From IMG/VR virus record IMGVR_UViG_2565956726_000008: a stretch of 64,000 nt of DNA; one strand, given 5' to 3'. A model generated the notes under the pieces. It had not been told where the DNA came from and searched no databases. It worked only from the letters and a program-made list of their open reading frames with translations. The stretch is from a virus. Its lineage: Duplodnaviria; Heunggongvirae; Uroviricota; Caudoviricetes. The stretch's first letter is position 1, and each line of letters opens with the position of its first letter. Positions 5,110 to 55,584 of the stretch are shown here, one piece after another. The position numbers and the translations under genes were made by a program.

Positions 5110-6051
5110 TCATTGGCAGCAAACAATCTCTTTGTATGCTTCTTCTACCATGTAGAATACTTCCGGACTGTAATAGAAAAACTCATTACTACCATTAAAT
5201 TTTACAGGAAAGTTAATTTTATAATCGCTAAAAACCTTATGTATCGTGCTTTCTAATTCTTGTACTTTACAGGTTGGCCCTTCTAACGTTTTCACGATAT
5301 GCAAATCAGGAATTCTAACGCCTGCTTTATGTGCGCTTTTTAATATCTGATTTCTTCGTTTATTCTCCTTAATGCTTACACCAATTTTCATCATCATTGG
5401 CACTTCTGGATCGTCAACCATGATGTAAAGCTTTCCGTGGTTGTGGGATAAAAAACCGTGTTTAGCGCATTTCGGGCAACCTTGCCCGCGTTTAAGGTTG
5501 TTGGGAGTGGCTGACCATTCATAGCTACAAACTTTGCAGCGACACAATACTTTTGTTTTGTCATTAACAATTTCACCAATAACTTCAATATCATGATTAA
5601 CAGTGGAAATAGCCGAAACTTGGTTTTCGTGTGATAACTTTCGATTTTCACAGCGCCTTATGTTATAGCATTTCGGGCAACCGTGCCCATGTTTAAGGTC
5701 ATCAGGAGTTGTCTTCCACCAGTGATTGCAAACATTGCATAGGCAGGCTACTTTTGTTTTGCTGTTAACAATTTTTTCTAACACTTCAACATCAGGATTA
5801 ATTTTAGCAATAGCCGAAACTTGGTCTTCGTGTGATAATGTTTGTTTTTGCGATATTTTTATTGCTTTACATTTTGGGCAACCGCTACCGCGCTTAAGGT
5901 TGTTTGGTATTGCCAACCACAAATGATCACAAACCTTGCAGCGGCATAATACTTTTTTGTCGTTACCTGTAATTTCTCCTAATACATCAACATCATGGTT
6001 AACTTTCGCAATAGCCTTAACATGTTCTTCATGCGTCATCTTGCGCGGCAT
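5110..6051 (-). CDS. Triple zinc-ribbon repeat protein with C-terminal T5orf172/GIY-YIG-like domain
   Basis: 313 aa; three ~67-aa repeats each with C-x-C-x2-C ... G-C-P-K-C; C-terminal GKLYIMVDD...KIGVS resembles T5orf172 motif. Confidence 0.6.
   Translation of the reverse strand: MPRKMTHEEHVKAIAKVNHDVDVLGEITGNDKKVLCRCKVCDHLWLAIPNNLKRGSGCPKCKAIKISQKQTLSHEDQVSAIAKINPDVEVLEKIVNSKTKVACLCNVCNHWWKTTPDDLKHGHGCPKCYNIRRCENRKLSHENQVSAISTVNHDIEVIGEIVNDKTKVLCRCKVCSYEWSATPNNLKRGQGCPKCAKHGFLSHNHGKLYIMVDDPEVPMMMKIGVSIKENKRRNQILKSAHKAGVRIPDLHIVKTLEGPTCKVQELESTIHKVFSDYKINFPVKFNGSNEFFYYSPEVFYMVEEAYKEIVCCQ
5440..6051. repeat. Intragenic tandem triplication, unit about 205 bp
   Basis: Three imperfect direct DNA repeats (each containing catttcgggcaacc...gtttaaggt...) encoding the three zinc-ribbon modules. 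Confidence 0.8.
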
Positions 6052-13500: not shown

Positions 13501-13693
13501 ACATTACATGGAATGGAAAATTCCAGAAGCAGCAACAAAGGCAGCGCCAGGAAATTATTCTGGCGTTTATTTTTATATGGATGGCAAATGGTATTTCGGC
13601 AGCAGGCCGGATCACTATTATCAGGAAATATGCAAGCCTCACGTATGGGATATTAAAGAGCGCGTGAAAGGCGGGGTAATTGAGGACGTTTAA
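13490..13693 (+). CDS. hypothetical protein (67 aa)
   Basis: ORF in dense array. Confidence 0.35.
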   Translation: MKFKHYMEWKIPEAATKAAPGNYSGVYFYMDGKWYFGSRPDHYYQEICKPHVWDIKERVKGGVIEDV

Positions 13694-13935: not shown

Positions 13936-14169
13936 ATGGCCTTATTCAATATGTCAGAGCCGCAATTTAACGCCGTAAAGACTGCCGCCCGCGCCGCGCT
14001 TTCGGCCTGCAAAGCGGAGGTAGAGAAGAACGGCTACAGCGATAAAGCCACGCGGCTGATATTAGATAAGCATTATCGCAAGGTCGCCCCGCTAATCAGT
14101 ATTGAGCGTTTTGTGTGGTTGGTGGGGTATCTGAATAACCGCTGGGGAACAGATCAGGATTATTTCTAA
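13936..14169 (+). CDS. hypothetical protein (77 aa)
   Basis: ATG at 13936 just after upstream stop. Confidence 0.4.
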   Translation: MALFNMSEPQFNAVKTAARAALSACKAEVEKNGYSDKATRLILDKHYRKVAPLISIERFVWLVGYLNNRWGTDQDYF

Positions 14170-14178
14170 GGGGGCGTA

Positions 14179-14718
14179 ATGAAAAATGATTACGGCGGCA
14201 GCCATACGCCGAAAGAAATAAAGGACTTATGGCAAACGCCAAAACCCGTTTTTAGAGGAATGGATCGAGAATTCGAGTTCGTCGCGGATGTGGCGGCAAA
14301 CAAGGCAAACGCATTAATACCGCGATATATAACCGAAGAAATGGACACGCTCCATTATCCGTGGGGAGCGGTGGCGATGCCTGGTGAGTATGTCTGGATG
14401 AATCCGCCATATTCTAATCCGGGGCCATTCGTTGATAAAGCGGCGCTTGAACACAGCCGAAATCATATCGGATGCGTAATGTTATTGCCCGCTGACATTT
14501 CTGTTAGCTGGTTTATGAACGGCGTGGAGACGGCAAACGAATGCCGATTAATCACGCGCGGGCGGCTGGCGTTTATCAATGCTGCAACAGGGAAACCAGT
14601 AAGCGGGAACAATAAGGGGAGCTTGTTCCTGATCTGGCATCCACGATGCAGACATGAATGTATTTTCACGCAGATAACACGTAAAGAGCTATATGCAAGA
14701 GGTGCAGAAAATGAATAA
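14179..14718 (+). CDS. phage Dam-type DNA N6-adenine methyltransferase
   Basis: 179 aa; WQTPKPVF ... FVADVAAN ... VWMNPPYSN (catalytic NPPY motif) typical of small phage Dam methyltransferases. Confidence 0.8.
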   Translation: MKNDYGGSHTPKEIKDLWQTPKPVFRGMDREFEFVADVAANKANALIPRYITEEMDTLHYPWGAVAMPGEYVWMNPPYSNPGPFVDKAALEHSRNHIGCVMLLPADISVSWFMNGVETANECRLITRGRLAFINAATGKPVSGNNKGSLFLIWHPRCRHECIFTQITRKELYARGAENE

Positions 14719-15031
14719 AGCGGCTGAATTGCTGAGACTTGCGGCTGAAACTATCGAGGCAAGAGGGGAGCAAAACGGATACGATCGAAAAGAAGAAAAA
14801 TCAGCGCCAAAAATAGCGGCTATTTTCAACGCTAAGATGAATGCGAATTTAACCCCACTTGATGTATGGGATCTAATGATTTGCCTCAAGGAAGCGCGTT
14901 TAGGGGCTATTCTCGCTAATGGAACTGATCCGCTCGACACTCTTATAGACCTTATTGCTTATAACGCGCTTAAGGCCGAACAGATATTAGCGTATCGGGA
15001 GGAAGAGCTAAATGAAGATGGTGGCAATTGA
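14711..15031 (+). CDS. hypothetical protein (106 aa)
   Basis: ATG at 14711 with gaggtg RBS, 8-nt overlap with methyltransferase gene. Confidence 0.4.
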   Translation: MNKAAELLRLAAETIEARGEQNGYDRKEEKSAPKIAAIFNAKMNANLTPLDVWDLMICLKEARLGAILANGTDPLDTLIDLIAYNALKAEQILAYREEELNEDGGN

Positions 15032-15515
15032 CAGGTTATTAGCCTGCGTTTATGTCGCCGTTTTCGTTATCATCAATCTTATTGTTAACCACTGTGGCCC
15101 GTGGGTAATTCCGATCACCACGGTAGCCGCCGTGTGTGTCAATATGATGATTCGTGATTTTCTGTTATATGACGGCGGCCTTAAATGGTCGGCTACAACA
15201 TGCGCCGCCGCTGGCGCAATCACGGTGCTGATAAATTACGACGCCGGAATGGTGGCGATCGCGTCATTCGTCGCGGTTGTTTCCGGTGCGCTTATTTCTG
15301 GCGGCGTTTACCGGGTTTTACCTGGTGATTTCGATTCTAAACGCTGGCCTGCAAATATAGCGTCCGCCATTGGCGATGCGTTAATTTTCCCAACGCTATC
15401 GTTTATGGCATTCATGCCGGAAATATCAGCTATGCAATTCATCTCAAAAATGGCGGCGGTAACGGTGATCACTATCATCATGCGCCGCTACTTTACGTTC
15501 GAGGGTAGGAAATGA
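15012..15515 (+). CDS. polytopic inner-membrane protein (about 5 TM helices), function unknown
   Basis: 167 aa, strongly hydrophobic; weak by-eye resemblance to YhhQ/DUF165-type transporters, not verifiable here. Confidence 0.5.
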   Translation: MKMVAIDRLLACVYVAVFVIINLIVNHCGPWVIPITTVAAVCVNMMIRDFLLYDGGLKWSATTCAAAGAITVLINYDAGMVAIASFVAVVSGALISGGVYRVLPGDFDSKRWPANIASAIGDALIFPTLSFMAFMPEISAMQFISKMAAVTVITIIMRRYFTFEGRK

Positions 15516-16276
15516 GTGGGCTTAGAAATTGGGTGGTGTGGTCGCTGTACGACGGCAGCGGATACGCCGTTAAAGATTGGGCCGACGCTGGTTATAAATG
15601 CTATTGCTTCAACTATGATGGCGCTAATCACGGCGATTATGAAGGCGTCAAAATCATTCATCCGAACATTGAGTATATCAACGTATGGATTGACAGCCAT
15701 TTCCTGGTAATGTTCTCCCCTGAATTGTCTGTTTATCCAGATCCTGACATTATCCTGGGCTTTCCTCCGTGCGACGATCTTGCGGTGTCCGGCGCTCGCT
15801 GGTTTGCTGATAAGCGGAAAAAAGAACCTTACTTCCAGCAGAAGGCGGCATACAACGCAAAACTGGTAGAAACGCTTGCTGATATGTACCACGTCCCGTG
15901 GATGGTGGAAAATCCGGTAGGTGCGCTGTCAACGTTATGGCGCAAACCTGATTTTATCTTCAACCCGTGCGCTTACGGTGGCTACCTGCCTGAAGACGAC
16001 AAACACCCTGCTTTCCCTGAATACATAGCTGCCCGCGACGCATACACGAAGAAAACTTGTATCTGGTGCGGGAATGGATTTAAGCAGCCGCTATTCCGGC
16101 CTGTACCTATGCCGGATGAATGGGAAGACAGCAAACAGCACGCGAAGTTAGGAGGAAAGTCGAAACGCACTAAGATGATCCGCTCACTAACGCCGCGCGG
16201 CTTTGCCCGTGCTGTATTCTTGGCTAACGACCGGGCCATCACTCGTACTACGCTTAACCGCATTTTACCGGACTAA
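15512..16276 (+). CDS. C5-cytosine methyltransferase-like protein (atypical motifs)
   Basis: 254 aa; candidate motif I SLYDGSGYA, motif IV GFPPCDD (Cys retained, Gln replaced), motif VI ENPVG; short for a C5-MTase. Confidence 0.45.
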   Translation: MSGLRNWVVWSLYDGSGYAVKDWADAGYKCYCFNYDGANHGDYEGVKIIHPNIEYINVWIDSHFLVMFSPELSVYPDPDIILGFPPCDDLAVSGARWFADKRKKEPYFQQKAAYNAKLVETLADMYHVPWMVENPVGALSTLWRKPDFIFNPCAYGGYLPEDDKHPAFPEYIAARDAYTKKTCIWCGNGFKQPLFRPVPMPDEWEDSKQHAKLGGKSKRTKMIRSLTPRGFARAVFLANDRAITRTTLNRILPD

Positions 16277-16278
16277 AG

Positions 16279-16357
16279 TTTACAAAATGGCATCATTGCG
16301 TGATGCGGATCACATAATGGCGCTTTTTGCCTTGTTTGGGGGTATCCATTTTGTATA
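16279..16357. repeat. Intergenic motif pair TTTACAAAATGG / CCATTTTGTATA flanking GTGA-N6-TCACA palindrome
   Basis: tttacaaaatggcat (16279-16293), cgtgatgcggatcaca (16299-16314), atccattttgtatac (16343-16357). Confidence 0.7.
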
Positions 16358-16435
16358 CTTCAAGCAAACAAAATGCTCTTTAAAAATCCGGCAGCGCTGA
16401 AATGCGTAGAAATCACCTGAAAAGGAGAGAGCATT

Positions 16436-51581: not shown

Positions 51582-53378
51582 ATGATTTACACAACAGGCA
51601 CTATAGCTGTTAGCGGAAACACAGTTACCGGGGCAGGGACTGAATTCAACGCCGCATTATCTCTGATCAGAGTGGGTTGCACTCTTATTGCCATTAGCGA
51701 TCCGGTGCAGATTTTTTCAATCACAAAGGTAAAAAGCGCAACAAGTTTGTCGGTAACTCCTGCGGCAAGTCCGGCTATTCCGGCTGGAACTAAATTTAGC
51801 ATCCTGCTTTCAGATTCGATCTCTGTGGATGGTCTTGCTCAGGATGTTGCCGAAACACTGCGTTACTACCAGGGCAAAGAATCAGAAATAGCTGACGCTG
51901 TGGAGTTTTTCAGCGACAACAAAGATGTGATTTCAGCATCAAAATTAGCATTAGCATCAGCTACCACTGCAACCAATGCGGCAACAACAGCGACAAGCGC
52001 CGCCGATTCAGCCAAGACATACAGAGACGAAGCCCACGAATACGCCAATCAGACCGCACAGCCTTACGCGTATGTTTTGCAACCGCTGCCGGACGTATGG
52101 ATACCGTTTAACGATTCTCTCGATATGATCACGGGCTACGGCCCTGGTACTAAAAAAGTAACCATTAATGGGGAAGAAAAAACAATATCATCAGATAAAG
52201 TTGTTTCTTTCTCACGCGCAAGCACTGCTACTTACATTAACAAATCAGGTGTTTTAACTGTGGCTGGTATTAATGAGCCACGTTTTGAACGCGAAGGATT
52301 ACTGATTGAGGGGACGCGCACAAACCTGTTAATAAACAGTACAGACCCTTCGAAGTGGAATAAGTCAACTTCACTGGACGTTACAGAAACAGGCACAGAT
52401 AGTTTTGGGTTTAATTATGGCCGGTTTGTCGTACAGGATTCGATTGTTGGTACAAGTAAAGCGCATACCATTATCGGACTGTATTCGAGTGCCGGAGGGG
52501 TTGATACTTCAGGGGACGAAAAGCATGTAACTATATCCTGTCGGGTAAAAAGTGAAGTTGATAATATCGCCGTTCGTATTTTATTTGAACATTATGATGG
52601 GGAGGTAAGGACATCAATAGGAGCAGCAAACCTGAACCTTACCACCCGCATAATTAGCAAGACAGGTCAGACAAGCCGTGTTACAGCAAGGTCTGTTAAG
52701 GATGATGCAACTGGCTGGATATTTTTTGAGGCTACATTAAAAGCAGATACAACAGAAAATACGGTTGGTGGTTTCGTCCAGTATTCTCCGGATACAGGTC
52801 AGATGGTGGCATCAGGGGATTGTCTCGATGTAACCACTCCACAGATTGAGGCTGGTGCAGGCGCATCATCTTTTATTGTTACGGGGTCGGCACCAGCAAC
52901 GCGGGCAAGCGATATGGTGACAGTCCCAATCAAGAATAACCTTTATAATCTTCCTTTTACGGTTCTTTGTGAGGTACATAAGAACTGGTATAAAACGCCA
53001 AATGCAGCGCCGCGTGTTTTTGATACCGGCGGTCATCAAACCGGAGCGGCGATCGTAATGGGGTTTGGTTCATCAGGTGGGTACGACGGTTTTCCGTATT
53101 GTGATATAGGTGGTTCAAACCGACGAATAAATGAAAATGCCGGGCTGGAAAAAATACTTATTGGTATGCGGGTAAAGTCCGAACGGTCCACATGTGTAGT
53201 CAGTAACGGTAAGTTAAGCAGCGAAACAAAAACAACCTGGACTTATATTCAAAGCTCCGCAACTATTCGTATCGGTGGTCAGACAACGACAGGACAACGT
53301 CATTTATTTGGTCATGTTAGAAATTTTCGAGTATGGCATAAGGCATTAACTGATGCGCAATTAAGCGAAATTGTTTAA
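51582..53378 (+). CDS. side tail fibre protein
   Basis: 598 aa; Ala/Thr/Ser-rich fibre-like repeats; position after J. Confidence 0.65.
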   Translation: MIYTTGTIAVSGNTVTGAGTEFNAALSLIRVGCTLIAISDPVQIFSITKVKSATSLSVTPAASPAIPAGTKFSILLSDSISVDGLAQDVAETLRYYQGKESEIADAVEFFSDNKDVISASKLALASATTATNAATTATSAADSAKTYRDEAHEYANQTAQPYAYVLQPLPDVWIPFNDSLDMITGYGPGTKKVTINGEEKTISSDKVVSFSRASTATYINKSGVLTVAGINEPRFEREGLLIEGTRTNLLINSTDPSKWNKSTSLDVTETGTDSFGFNYGRFVVQDSIVGTSKAHTIIGLYSSAGGVDTSGDEKHVTISCRVKSEVDNIAVRILFEHYDGEVRTSIGAANLNLTTRIISKTGQTSRVTARSVKDDATGWIFFEATLKADTTENTVGGFVQYSPDTGQMVASGDCLDVTTPQIEAGAGASSFIVTGSAPATRASDMVTVPIKNNLYNLPFTVLCEVHKNWYKTPNAAPRVFDTGGHQTGAAIVMGFGSSGGYDGFPYCDIGGSNRRINENAGLEKILIGMRVKSERSTCVVSNGKLSSETKTTWTYIQSSATIRIGGQTTTGQRHLFGHVRNFRVWHKALTDAQLSEIV

Positions 53379-54102: not shown

Positions 54103-55107
<1,005 letters not shown>

Positions 55108-55381
55108 CAAAAGCAATTTTTCCGGCTATCTGTATACAAAAACGCCGCAAAGTTTGAGCGAAGTCAATAAACTCTCTACCCATTCAGGGCAATATCTCTC
55201 TTGCAGGTGAATGCAACGTCAAGCGATGGGCGTTGCGCTCCATATTGTCTTACTTCCTTTTTTGAATTACTGCATAGCACAATTGATTCGTACGACGCCG
55301 ACTTTGATGAGTCGGCTTTTTTTTGCCTGTTATTTATCAGCGTCTACCCTTTAAGAGTCCACCCAATGACCGGAGGGAAAT

Positions 55382-55555
55382 ATGACGACACTTATTTATT
55401 TGCAAATTCCTGTCCCTGAACCGATTCCTGGCGATCCTGTTCCAGTGCCCGATCCGATCCCTCGCCCGCAACCCATGCCTGACCCACCACCCGATGAAGA
55501 ACCGATTAAATTGTCGCATCGTGAGCGTAGATCTGCGAGGATACGCGCCTGCTAA
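55382..55555 (+). CDS. small proline-rich protein (57 aa), uncertain
   Basis: ATG with ggagggaaat RBS; PVPEPIPGDPVPVPDPIPRPQPMPDPPPDEEP. Confidence 0.25.
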   Translation: MTTLIYLQIPVPEPIPGDPVPVPDPIPRPQPMPDPPPDEEPIKLSHRERRSARIRAC

Positions 55556-55584
55556 CTTTGCGTCGATGACCACGAGAATAGATT

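What the first reader, a model, noticed from the sequence alone, without database searches (positions are those of the whole stretch)
14179..16276. Two-methyltransferase module: Dam-like N6A enzyme and an atypical C5-MTase-like protein flanking a polytopic membrane protein
A clear phage Dam-type enzyme (NPPY motif) is followed by a 106-aa protein, a roughly 5-TM membrane protein and a 254-aa protein with recognisable but divergent C5-methyltransferase motifs (I SLYDGSGY, IV GFPPCDD instead of PCQ, VI ENPVG). It is too short to carry a normal target-recognition domain. The membrane protein between them is unexpected for a pure anti-restriction module and hints at coupling to uptake of a precursor, or at a DNA hypermodification pathway rather than simple methylation. 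Several intergenic motifs contain GATC, a possible target of the Dam-like enzyme.
Basis: partly seen in the sequence, partly recalled or inferred. Interest (0 to 1): 0.55.

Follow-up and report, generated by a model that had tools for sequence, protein, structure and literature searches.

The report
Phage methylase cassette with orphan transporter
An E. coli prophage carries four tightly packed early genes: two DNA methyltransferases, a small protein of unknown function, and a membrane transporter whose relatives in other phages almost always sit next to a DNA base-swapping enzyme that is missing here, so the methylases look ordinary and the transporter's job is unexplained.

Summary
The four ORFs and the quoted motifs are real. 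The window is an E. coli chromosome carrying a prophage of the published mEp021/mEpimmI group, in which these genes are already annotated as Dam, hypothetical, membrane protein and cytosine methyltransferase.

- **Gene 1** is a clear phage Dam (PF05869, NPPY).
- **Gene 2** is DUF6378, function unknown.
- **Gene 3** gave the new result. It is a divergent VUT/YhhQ-family homologue, the family of 7-deazaguanine-precursor transporters. In 77 of 80 other viral contigs its relatives sit beside a DpdA transglycosylase.

No DpdA or preQ0-synthesis gene was found in the window or in the related phage DNA scanned. Yet the transporter gene is the most constrained of the four (dN/dS 0.02-0.05). It belongs to a DpdA-less clade in a rough tree.

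Best reading: a mosaic anti-restriction methylation island plus an orphan but functional transporter. A new hypermodification pathway is not supported, though not excluded. GATC is at chance level. Moderate interest.

The parts
14179..14718 (+). Phage Dam-type N6-adenine DNA methyltransferase, 179 aa, NPPY at residues 75-78
   Evidence: Pfam PF05869 at E 1.9e-51, 174.5 bits against a cut-off of 28.1. TIGR01712 equivalog at 140.9 bits against 97.05. phrog_111. dN/dS 0.04-0.11 against relatives.
14711..15031 (+). DUF6378 protein, 106 aa. This is a short allele; mEp021 and MagusPhagus carry 165-170 aa versions. Function unknown.
   Evidence: PF19905 at E 2.9e-9 to 3.4e-9. The start matches mEp021 gp31. 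No PDB or other Pfam relative was found. It lies next to or near Dam in other phage lineages.
15012..15515 (+). Six-helix inner-membrane protein, 167 aa, phrog_4899. A divergent VUT/YhhQ-family (PF02592) transporter homologue with no DpdA partner.
   Evidence: phrog_4899 at E 2.7e-46. Vut_1 match over the full length of the profile but below threshold, E 0.22. A profile search found 261 relatives, and 43 of 46 sampled match Vut_1. hhalign against CAjan YhhQ gives 97.4% probability, E 1.3e-11. The top viral fold hit is 'Putative vitamin uptake transporter'. dN/dS is 0.02-0.05.
15512..16276 (+). Compact C5-cytosine-methyltransferase-fold protein, 254 aa, phrog_757. Motif I at 11-18, PPC (Cys87) within 83-89, ENP at 133-135, motif IX-like RSLTPRGFARAV at 224-235.
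13543..13567 (+). Terminator-like hairpin upstream of the block, at the position of mEp021 predicted terminator t3 (context, boundary)
   Evidence: Consensus scan. mEp021 TERM_3 lies at the homologous position.
16376..16407 (+). nutR2-like element just downstream: boxA-like GCTCTTTAA plus a boxB-like hairpin GCGCTGAAATGCGT (context, boundary)
   Evidence: Read by eye from the sequence, which is conserved with mEp021. The mEpimmI paper places nutR2 immediately downstream of the methyltransferase gene (PMC11893012).

Best explanation
This is a mosaic DNA-modification island in the N-antiterminated early-right operon of an mEpimmI-type E. coli prophage. Four translationally coupled genes are expressed together during lytic growth.

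1. **Dam.** A phage Dam-family enzyme methylates adenine N6 in phage and host DNA. GATC specificity is inferred from the family and was not tested.
2. **DUF6378.** A small helical protein that often travels with Dam. Its function is unknown.
3. **C5-like enzyme.** A compact methyltransferase with DNMT3-like architecture most likely methylates cytosine C5 by the classical route. Cys87 of the PPC motif attacks C6, Glu133 of ENP protonates N3, and the methyl group comes from SAM. It probably reads a short motif, given its target-recognition region of about 70 residues that is conserved across the family. The two orphan methylases would protect progeny DNA from restriction in the next host. They work independently of each other and of the membrane protein.
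4. **Membrane protein.** It is a functional VUT/YhhQ-type permease. It descends from a two-gene DpdA-plus-transporter module (7-deazaguanine DNA modification) that is common in phage nin regions. In this clade DpdA is absent, and a C5-like gene sits immediately downstream of the transporter. That is where DpdA sits in the minority of DpdA-linked loci with the order transporter then DpdA, which include L004, L026 and L030. I infer that the protein still imports a 7-deazaguanine-type base such as preQ0 or preQ1. Without a phage DpdA, the only known consumer is the host Tgt/queuosine-tRNA pathway.

**Shown:** family memberships, fold, gene order, absence of DpdA in the DNA scanned, and purifying selection. 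**Inferred:** substrates, target motifs, the anti-restriction role and the fate of the imported base.
For: **Identity of the element**
- 85-90% nucleotide identity to MagusPhagus and the mEp phages, with the same four genes.
- 100% identical to the E. coli FAH chromosome; the cassette is present in 35 of 5426 complete E. coli genomes.
- The cassette lies between a t3-like terminator and nutR2.

**Dam:**

**C5-like enzyme**
- Invariant motifs, a confident model, DNMT3/C5-methyltransferase fold hits, and a profile alignment of Cys87 onto the catalytic Cys of DNMT3B and M.HhaI.
- It stands alone in 61 of 80 viral loci. In another lineage it sits with Dam and DUF6378 but without the transporter.

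**Transporter**
- VUT family membership by transitive and profile evidence.
- 77 of 80 viral relatives have DpdA (phrog_887), and in 73 it is directly adjacent on the same strand.
- No DpdA in the window or in the mEp021, MagusPhagus and L003 loci that were scanned. No Que genes were seen.
- dN/dS 0.02-0.05.
- Residues invariant across the family (N22, G29, R48, D49, D122, F131, K146) are retained.
- A DpdA-less clade of window, L003 and P0133 appears in a rough tree.

**Precedent:** Hutinet et al. 2019 (PMC6884629) propose that phages carrying Q-pathway genes but no DpdA may boost host Q-tRNA.
Against: - No enzymatic or methylome data exist for any of the four proteins.
- The C5-like protein fails Pfam PF00145, has no recognisable motif X, and its target is unknown.
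- E. coli already has its own YhhQ and de novo preQ0 synthesis, so a second importer that only serves tRNA is a weak rationale for such strong purifying selection.
- Expression from the lytic early operon fits a role in DNA metabolism better than a role in lysogen fitness.
- The transporter's stop codon overlaps the start of the C5-like gene (ATGA), so functional coupling cannot be excluded.
- The window's own Vut_1 score (12.3 bits) is below the Pfam threshold, so membership rests on transitive evidence.
Confidence: 0.55

Rival explanations
1. This is a true hypermodification pathway. The transporter imports a base or cofactor precursor, and the atypical C5-like enzyme, or it together with DUF6378, installs something other than a methyl group on phage DNA. 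One option is an alternative cofactor such as host-made carboxy-SAM.
For: - The transporter gene and the C5-like gene overlap by ATGA.
- The transporter is under very strong purifying selection despite having no DpdA.
- The C5-like protein lacks a recognisable motix X and misses Pfam PF00145.
Against: - phrog_757 occurs without any VUT-like gene in 61 of 80 loci, all of them outside the mEpimmI group.
- The transporter's closest outgroup (P0133, 44% identity) has no phrog_757 neighbour.
- VUT substrates known so far are 7-deazaguanine bases, and no C5-methyltransferase-fold enzyme is known to use them.
- The CmoX hallmark SPPC is FPPC here, and no CmoA or ligase gene is present.
Confidence: 0.1
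2. The 167-aa protein no longer acts as a precursor importer. It has been recruited for another membrane function in the lytic cycle, such as superinfection exclusion, export, or transport of an unrelated small molecule. The methylases work as in the best explanation.
For: - A DpdA-less clade appears to have been maintained down to 44% identity, in three different gene neighbourhoods.
- The host already has YhhQ.
- Sequence divergence is large enough that Pfam Vut_1 is missed.
Against: The residues invariant across the DpdA-linked family are all retained, which argues for the same transport mechanism. There is no positive evidence for any other function.
Confidence: 0.15
3. The transporter gene is a functionless relic of a lost DpdA module.
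For: DpdA is absent while nearly all relatives have it. One variant (L090/P0130) carries a deletion that fuses Dam to the transporter's C-terminal half.
Against: - dN/dS is 0.02-0.05 at dS up to 0.42, the lowest of the four genes.
- The ORF is intact in 18 of 19 mEpimmI-type loci and in lineages at 52% and 44% identity.
Confidence: 0.05
4. The 254-aa protein is not an active methyltransferase. It would instead be a DNMT3L-like regulatory or DNA-binding protein, or a decoy against host defences.
For: There is no motif X, it is short, it has no Pfam hit, and no activity has been reported in the papers searched.
Against: The catalytic Cys, the ENP Glu, the motif I glycines and motif IX are invariant across 37 diverse members. 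Inactive paralogues normally lose these. dN/dS is 0.05-0.15.
Confidence: 0.08

Closest known systems
mEp021 gp30-gp33 (MH706966) and the same genes in MagusPhagus and mEp010/013/044/515/554, the mEpimmI phage group (PMC11893012)
   Same: Same four genes in the same order at 85-90% nucleotide identity. They are annotated as putative N6-adenine methyltransferase, hypothetical, putative membrane protein with 6 TM, and putative DNA cytosine methyltransferase. nutR2 lies downstream.
   Different: The window carries a short 106-aa DUF6378 allele. No published annotation links the membrane protein to the VUT/YhhQ family or to DpdA.
Phage Dam family (Pfam PF05869 / TIGR01712 phage N-6-adenine-methyltransferase)
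   Same: Full-length match far above the cut-offs, with the NPPY catalytic motif.
   Different: Nothing notable. Sequence specificity was not tested.
C5-cytosine DNA methyltransferases, closest in fold to the DNMT3A/3B catalytic domain; also M.HhaI, prophage enzyme 3G7U and phage CmoX (8YF3)
   Same: Rossmann-type fold. Motifs I (FxGxG-like), IV (PC with the catalytic Cys), VI (ENx) and IX (RxLTPRx). A short target-recognition region as in DNMT3.
   Different: Only 254 aa. No Pfam PF00145 hit. PPC followed by T or D instead of PCQ. No recognisable motif X. The region of about 70 residues between motifs VI and IX is highly conserved across the whole family instead of variable. Cofactor and target are unknown.
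YhhQ/COG1738 (Pfam Vut_1, PF02592): E. coli preQ0/preQ1 importer and phage CAjan gp41 'putative preQ0 transporter'
   Same: Six helices. The conserved NL, RD and D(S/A)xxFP motifs appear in the same order. Profile-profile match to CAjan YhhQ at 97.4%.
   Different: Below the Pfam threshold by itself (12.3 against 27.2 bits). BLASTP against CAjan YhhQ is insignificant. Shorter than E. coli YhhQ (221 aa from memory). Not accompanied by any 7-deazaguanine enzyme.
Phage 7-deazaguanine DNA-modification modules: DpdA with or without FolE/QueD/QueE/QueC and YhhQ (Hutinet 2019 PMC6884629; CAjan PMC7544227)
   Same: The transporter component is homologous. Its relatives form a minimal DpdA-plus-transporter pair in 77 of 80 viral loci, often in the same nin-region context with the same Dam family.
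   Different: The defining enzyme DpdA and all preQ0-synthesis genes are absent here. The cassette therefore cannot be filed as a 7-deazaguanine system.

Membership tests
Phage Dam (PF05869 / TIGR01712) | Full-length HMM match above the curated cut-off | tested here: met
   PF05869 at 174.5 bits against 28.1. TIGR01712 at 140.9 bits against 97.05.
Phage Dam (PF05869 / TIGR01712) | (D/N)PPY catalytic motif | tested here: met
   NPPY at residues 75-78.
Phage Dam (PF05869 / TIGR01712) | m6A formation at GATC | not testable with these tools
   Needs methylome or enzyme data. The GATC frequency in the window is as expected by chance, so it gives no hint either way.
C5-cytosine DNA methyltransferase (PF00145) | Pfam PF00145 match | tested here: not met
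   No hit even at E <= 10 for the window protein. Only 3 of the 120 listed homologues carry a precomputed PF00145 hit.
C5-cytosine DNA methyltransferase (PF00145) | Motif I (FxGxG), motif IV Pro-Cys with the catalytic Cys, motif VI ENV-type Glu | tested here: met
   G15, S16, P86, C87, E133, N134 and P135 are invariant in 37 sequences.
C5-cytosine DNA methyltransferase (PF00145) | Motifs IX and X at the C-terminus | tested here: inconclusive
   RSLTPRGFARAV resembles motif IX of HhaI (RKLHPRECARVM) by eye. No GN(A/S)V-type motif X is recognisable. A structural superposition was not available.
C5-cytosine DNA methyltransferase (PF00145) | C5-methyltransferase fold | tested here: met
C5-cytosine DNA methyltransferase (PF00145) | m5C formation in DNA with SAM | not testable with these tools
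   No experimental report was found.
VUT / YhhQ / COG1738 transporters (PF02592) | Pfam Vut_1 match above the gathering score | tested here: not met
   12.3 bits against 27.2, E 0.22, although the match covers profile positions 6-149 of 152.
VUT / YhhQ / COG1738 transporters (PF02592) | Homology shown through intermediates and profile-profile comparison | tested here: met
   43 of 46 relatives found by the family profile match Vut_1, best E 2.5e-15. hhalign against CAjan YhhQ gives 97.4% probability, E 1.3e-11. P0137 carries a precomputed Vut_1 hit.
VUT / YhhQ / COG1738 transporters (PF02592) | Polytopic six-helix architecture | tested here: met
   The AF2 model has six helices, but at low confidence, pLDDT 64. 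The mEp021 record notes 6 TM by TMHMM and Phobius.
VUT / YhhQ / COG1738 transporters (PF02592) | Transport of preQ0, preQ1 or queuine | not testable with these tools
   Needs complementation of an E. coli yhhQ queD mutant.
Phage 7-deazaguanine DNA modification system | DpdA (TGT-like DNA transglycosylase) | tested here: not met
   An HMM built from 71 DpdA-like neighbours finds nothing in the window's six-frame ORFs at E <= 10. It also finds nothing in the mEp021, MagusPhagus and L003 loci scanned. The large early proteins are replication proteins.
Phage 7-deazaguanine DNA modification system | [quoted passage not shown] | tested here: not met
   None is annotated in MagusPhagus or in the mEp021 region retrieved. 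Pfam and PHROG scans of the remaining ORFs of 100 aa or more found none. ORFs below 100 aa were not scanned.
CmoX DNA C5-carboxymethyltransferase | SPPC motif, an Arg at the HhaI N304 position, and CmoA (often a ligase too) nearby | tested here: not met
   The motif is FPPC. No CmoA or ligase appears in the phage annotations. The N304-equivalent residue could not be assigned. The criteria come from PMC12783734.

The most novel reading that the evidence does not exclude
A DpdA-independent clade of phage VUT-type transporters may mark an undescribed DNA- or nucleotide-modification route. The clade comprises the mEpimmI phages, contig L003 and the P0133 lineage. It is embedded among DNA methyltransferases of three different families (Dam, phrog_757, PF01555) and is under very strong purifying selection. 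In this reading an imported base or cofactor precursor is used by the compact C5-methyltransferase-like enzyme, or by another neighbouring protein of unknown function, rather than by a TGT-type transglycosylase.
Probability: 0.08. Interest if true: 0.8.

Novelty: new variant of a known kind. Interest (0 to 1): 0.4.

Why it matters
The methylases add little that is new. Orphan Dam and C5 methylases in phage nin regions are a standard anti-restriction device, and this cassette is already in GenBank.

Two points are useful.

1. **A better annotation for phrog_4899.** This family is labelled 'unknown function' in PHROGs and 'hypothetical protein' by PGAP. It can now be read as the transporter half of a minimal DpdA-plus-transporter module that is widespread in viral metagenomes. 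That improves prediction of which phages carry 7-deazaguanine DNA.
2. **A testable puzzle.** A clade of this transporter appears to have lost DpdA yet is conserved more tightly than its neighbours. If the transporter feeds host queuosine-tRNA, it would be a phage gene that manipulates host tRNA modification during lytic growth. If it feeds something else, a new modification route is in play.

The phrog_757 family has more than 2300 sequence clusters, including members in large virulent coliphages and Salmonella phages. It is a compact C5-methyltransferase with DNMT3-like architecture and no known specificity, and it would be cheap to characterise.

Tried and rejected
- **Direct Pfam, NCBIfam and PADLOC scans of genes 3 and 4.** Nothing significant. 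Only a sub-threshold Vut_1 hit and weak orphan-methyltransferase hits.
- **PDB sequence searches with the 254-aa protein.** The single sequence gave noise (Kirbac). The profile gave only weak DNMT3B and HaeIII N-terminal hits, E about 0.1-0.7.
- **BLASTP and a shallow-profile hhalign of the transporter against CAjan YhhQ.** Insignificant. Only the 46-sequence profile worked.
- **AF2 of the transporter with a 6-sequence alignment.** Low confidence, pLDDT 64. The viral fold search gave just one meaningful weak hit. The afdb50 library was unavailable.
- **DUF6378.** The homologue search returned only close E. coli relatives. Profile searches against PDB and Pfam gave nothing. My recollection that it might be MazG-like found no support and is dropped.
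- **DpdM, the dPreQ1 methyltransferase, as an analogue of gene 4.** Rejected, because DpdM belongs to DUF3109 and has an unrelated fold.
- **GATC enrichment.** None.
- **Literature searches for phrog ids, for the mEp phage methylases and for phage orphan C5 methylases.** No functional data on these proteins.
- **hhalign of the C5-like family against M.HhaI (sequence from memory).** It aligned only motifs I-IV at low probability.
Full report
**What is there**

On the + strand of the window lie four overlapping ORFs:
- 14179-14718, 179 aa
- 14711-15031, 106 aa (an upstream ATG at 14693 would give 112 aa)
- 15012-15515, 167 aa
- 15512-16276, 254 aa

The overlaps are 8 nt, 20 nt and 4 nt (ATGA), so the genes form one translationally coupled block. 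NPPY is at residues 75-78 of the first protein. SLYDGSGY (11-18), GFPPCDD (83-89) and ENPVG (133-137) are in the last. GATC is not enriched, with 11 observed against 10.7 expected in the cassette and 318 against 311 in the window.

**Where it comes from**

The cassette is 100% identical to the chromosome of E. coli strain FAH. It occurs in 35 of 5426 complete E. coli genomes, always on the chromosome. It is 85-90% identical to Escherichia phage MagusPhagus and to mEp010, 013, 021, 044, 515 and 554. These belong to the published mEpimmI group of Nus-dependent temperate coliphages (PMC11893012).

In mEp021 the four genes are gp30-gp33. They are annotated as putative N6-adenine methyltransferase, hypothetical, putative membrane protein (6 TM) and putative DNA cytosine methyltransferase.

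Upstream is a terminator-like hairpin at the position of mEp021's predicted t3. Downstream is a conserved boxA/boxB-like element, at the place where the paper locates nutR2. NinF-, NinG-, RusA- and Q-like genes follow. The block therefore belongs to the N-antiterminated early-right operon and should be expressed in lytic growth. This is inferred from the mEp021 literature and position, not tested here.

**Gene 1**

This is an unambiguous phage Dam. PF05869 scores 174.5 bits against a cut-off of 28.1, and the TIGR01712 equivalog scores 140.9 against 97.05.

**Gene 2**

This is a DUF6378 protein. It is a short allele; mEp021 and MagusPhagus carry 165-170 aa versions. I could not connect it to any solved structure or other family. 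It co-occurs with Dam in another phage lineage that lacks the membrane protein.

**Gene 4**

It has no Pfam or NCBIfam hit, but it matches phrog_757 'DNA methyltransferase' at 2e-87. It has 2360 homologues at E <= 1e-3. Most are 226-260 aa, and they include proteins of Salmonella phages SSE121 and STP-SP1, Escherichia phage A7_1 and Citrobacter phage BlueShadow.

In 37 diverse members the following are invariant:
- the motif I residues G15 and S16
- Pro86-Cys87
- Glu133-Asn134-Pro135
- most of a C-terminal TKxIRSLTPRGFA element that resembles C5-methyltransferase motif IX

The family profile aligns Cys87 with the catalytic cysteine of DNMT3B and M.HaeIII, although weakly at E about 0.1-0.7.

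The AlphaFold model is confident, with pLDDT 87 and pTM 0.87. Its best structural matches are all C5-cytosine methyltransferases:
- Foldseek: DNMT3A/3B at about 1e-6

Several features are atypical:
- the small size
- T or D after the PPC motif
- no recognisable motif X
- a region of about 70 residues between motifs VI and IX that is strongly conserved across the family rather than variable

That last point suggests one shared, probably short, specificity.

**Gene 3, the main new result**

By itself it gives only a sub-threshold Pfam match to Vut_1 (PF02592) at E 0.22, although the match runs the full length of the profile. It also matches phrog_4899, 'unknown function'. The word-indexed search found only 12 close relatives. 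One of them, at 52% identity, sits in the same four-gene cassette on a divergent contig, L003.

A full HMMER search with the family profile found 261 representatives. Of 46 sampled, 43 match Vut_1, with a best E of 2.5e-15. The 46-sequence profile matches the 'putative preQ0 transporter' YhhQ of phage CAjan with 97.4% probability, E 1.3e-11. The only meaningful viral fold hit of the low-confidence model is a 'Putative vitamin uptake transporter'.

The protein is therefore a divergent member of the VUT/YhhQ family. The characterised members of this family import preQ0/preQ1 (Zallot et al. 2017, as cited in PMC6884629).

**Context of its relatives**

In 80 viral contigs encoding relatives at 31-39% identity, 77 also encode a protein of about 250 aa from one family. 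In 73 of these it is directly adjacent on the same strand, usually upstream. This neighbour is phrog_887 'queuine tRNA-ribosyltransferase', that is, DpdA-like, with E values from 1e-69 to 1e-98.

Several of these loci are lambdoid nin regions with the same Dam family nearby:
- L026 has O/DnaB, then transporter, DpdA, NinB, Dam and NinG.
- L004 encodes a DpdA-Dam fusion immediately after the transporter, again with an ATGA overlap.

So phrog_4899 is normally the transporter half of a minimal DpdA-plus-transporter module.

**What is missing here**

- An HMM built from 71 of these DpdA-like proteins finds nothing in any reading frame of the window at E <= 10.
- It also finds nothing in the mEp021, MagusPhagus or L003 loci that were scanned.
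- The large early proteins on the other arm are replication proteins: a DnaB-like helicase, an exonuclease, an HNH endonuclease and an O-like initiator.
- The other ORFs of 100 aa or more have no Que-family hits.
- The MagusPhagus annotation retrieved, and the mEp021 region around the cassette, list no queuosine-pathway gene.

The cassette therefore cannot be a 7-deazaguanine DNA-modification system of the known kind.

**Is the transporter a relic?**

No. Against mEp021, MagusPhagus and four IMG/VR relatives its dN/dS is 0.02-0.05 at dS 0.23-0.42. This is the lowest of the four genes. Dam gives 0.04-0.11, the C5-like gene 0.05-0.15, and DUF6378 about 0.10-0.18. The residues invariant in the wider family (N22, G29, R48, D49, D122, F131, K146) are retained.

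The nearest outgroup is P0133 at 44% identity. It also lacks DpdA within 5 kb. It sits next to two paralogous proteins of unknown function and a PF01555 N6/N4 DNA methyltransferase. More distant relatives, P0136 and P0137, have DpdA again.

A rough neighbour-joining tree without bootstrap groups the window with mEp021, L003 and P0133 into one DpdA-less clade.

**Is the C5-like enzyme tied to the transporter?**

No. Among 80 viral loci encoding phrog_757 proteins, only the 19 mEpimmI-type loci (82-97% identity) have the transporter. None has DpdA. Sixty-one have neither. Five, from another lineage, have the C5-like gene, then Dam, then DUF6378, with no transporter. Two of the 80 DpdA-transporter loci also carry a phrog_757 gene nearby, which is unremarkable for such a common phage gene.

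**Interpretation**

The block is a mosaic of mobile nin-region genes. Two are independent orphan DNA methyltransferases. The most economical role for them is protection of progeny DNA from restriction, which is an inference from established knowledge of phage orphan methylases.

The third element is a transporter that descends from a DpdA-plus-transporter module. In this clade DpdA is absent. A C5-like gene occupies the position directly downstream of the transporter. That is where DpdA sits in the minority arrangement seen in L004, L026, L030 and L170.

The transporter is clearly still useful to the phage. The only consumer of imported preQ0/preQ1 known in E. coli is the host Tgt/queuosine-tRNA pathway. 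Hutinet et al. proposed just such a role for phages that carry Q-pathway genes without DpdA (PMC6884629).

This explanation is weak, because E. coli has its own YhhQ and makes preQ0 de novo. I therefore give it only moderate weight and list the alternatives: a recruited, different membrane function, or true coupling to the C5-like enzyme.

The recent finding that a phage C5-methyltransferase homologue (CmoX) transfers carboxymethyl from Cx-SAM shows that such enzymes can do non-methyl chemistry (PMC12783734). However, the CmoX signature (SPPC, with CmoA and a ligase nearby) is not present here.

**Verdict**

The two-methyltransferase reading is correct and already in the public annotation. The 'precursor uptake' hunch is right at the level of protein family. 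The 'hypermodification pathway' is not supported, because its defining enzyme is absent.

What remains truly unexplained is why a DpdA-less clade of this transporter is so strongly conserved.

Noticed in passing
L004:4998-6844 (IMGVR_UViG_3300011586_000014): A VUT-like transporter gene is followed, with an ATGA overlap, by a single ORF of about 460 aa. The ORF fuses a DpdA-like transglycosylase (phrog_887, E 1e-88) to a Dam domain (PF05869, E 8e-59) closely related to the window's Dam. It would be a natural fusion of a 7-deazaguanine-inserting enzyme and an adenine methylase.
   Followed up: partly
L004-L083 (80 IMG/VR contigs): phrog_4899, labelled 'unknown function', is the partner of DpdA in a minimal two-gene module in 77 of 80 loci. 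In 73 the two genes are directly adjacent on the same strand. No preQ0-synthesis family appeared among the commonest neighbouring gene clusters.
   Followed up: yes
L166-L169 (ENA metagenome contigs carrying P0133): The closest outgroup of the window's transporter (44% identity) also lacks DpdA. It is followed by two paralogous proteins of about 140 aa with unknown function (phrog_2510) and a PF01555 N6/N4 DNA methyltransferase. This is a second, different pairing of a transporter with a methylase.
   Followed up: partly
window 14711-15031, compared with L001:4712-5209 and L002:4713-5225: The DUF6378 gene in the window is a 106-aa short allele lacking the C-terminal extension of about 60 residues seen in mEp021 and MagusPhagus. 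The identical short form is recorded on 202 contigs. In L090 (P0130) a larger deletion fuses Dam to the C-terminal half of the transporter.
   Followed up: partly
window 16277-16435: The intergenic stretch downstream of the cassette is conserved with mEp021. It contains a hairpin (GCATCATTGCGTGATGC, 16290-16306), a boxA-like GCTCTTTAA (about 16376-16384) and a boxB-like hairpin GCGCTGAAATGCGT (about 16394-16407). This is presumably the published nutR2 and t4.
   Followed up: partly
window 13936-14169: Immediately upstream of Dam lies a 77-aa ORF (phrog_303). It is the homologue of mEp021 gp29, 'ipe', annotated as 'inducer of pleiotropic effects'.
   Followed up: no
window 54124-59309: The prophage seems to end after the tail-fibre gene (51582-53378). 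A CorA-family gene (54124-55107) and a DbpA RNA helicase gene (55585-56958) follow and look like host genes. Then come 311-aa and 411-aa genes on the minus strand, which from memory of the K-12 map could be ttcA and a Rac-type integrase, so a second prophage may start there. The left edge of the window cuts the mEpimmI prophage, and its integrase is not in the window.
   Followed up: no
window 5110-6051 (- strand): A 313-aa HNH-endonuclease-like gene (phrog_681 and phrog_559) sits between the replication-initiator and exonuclease genes of the leftward operon. MagusPhagus appears to have no gene of this size at that position.
   Followed up: no
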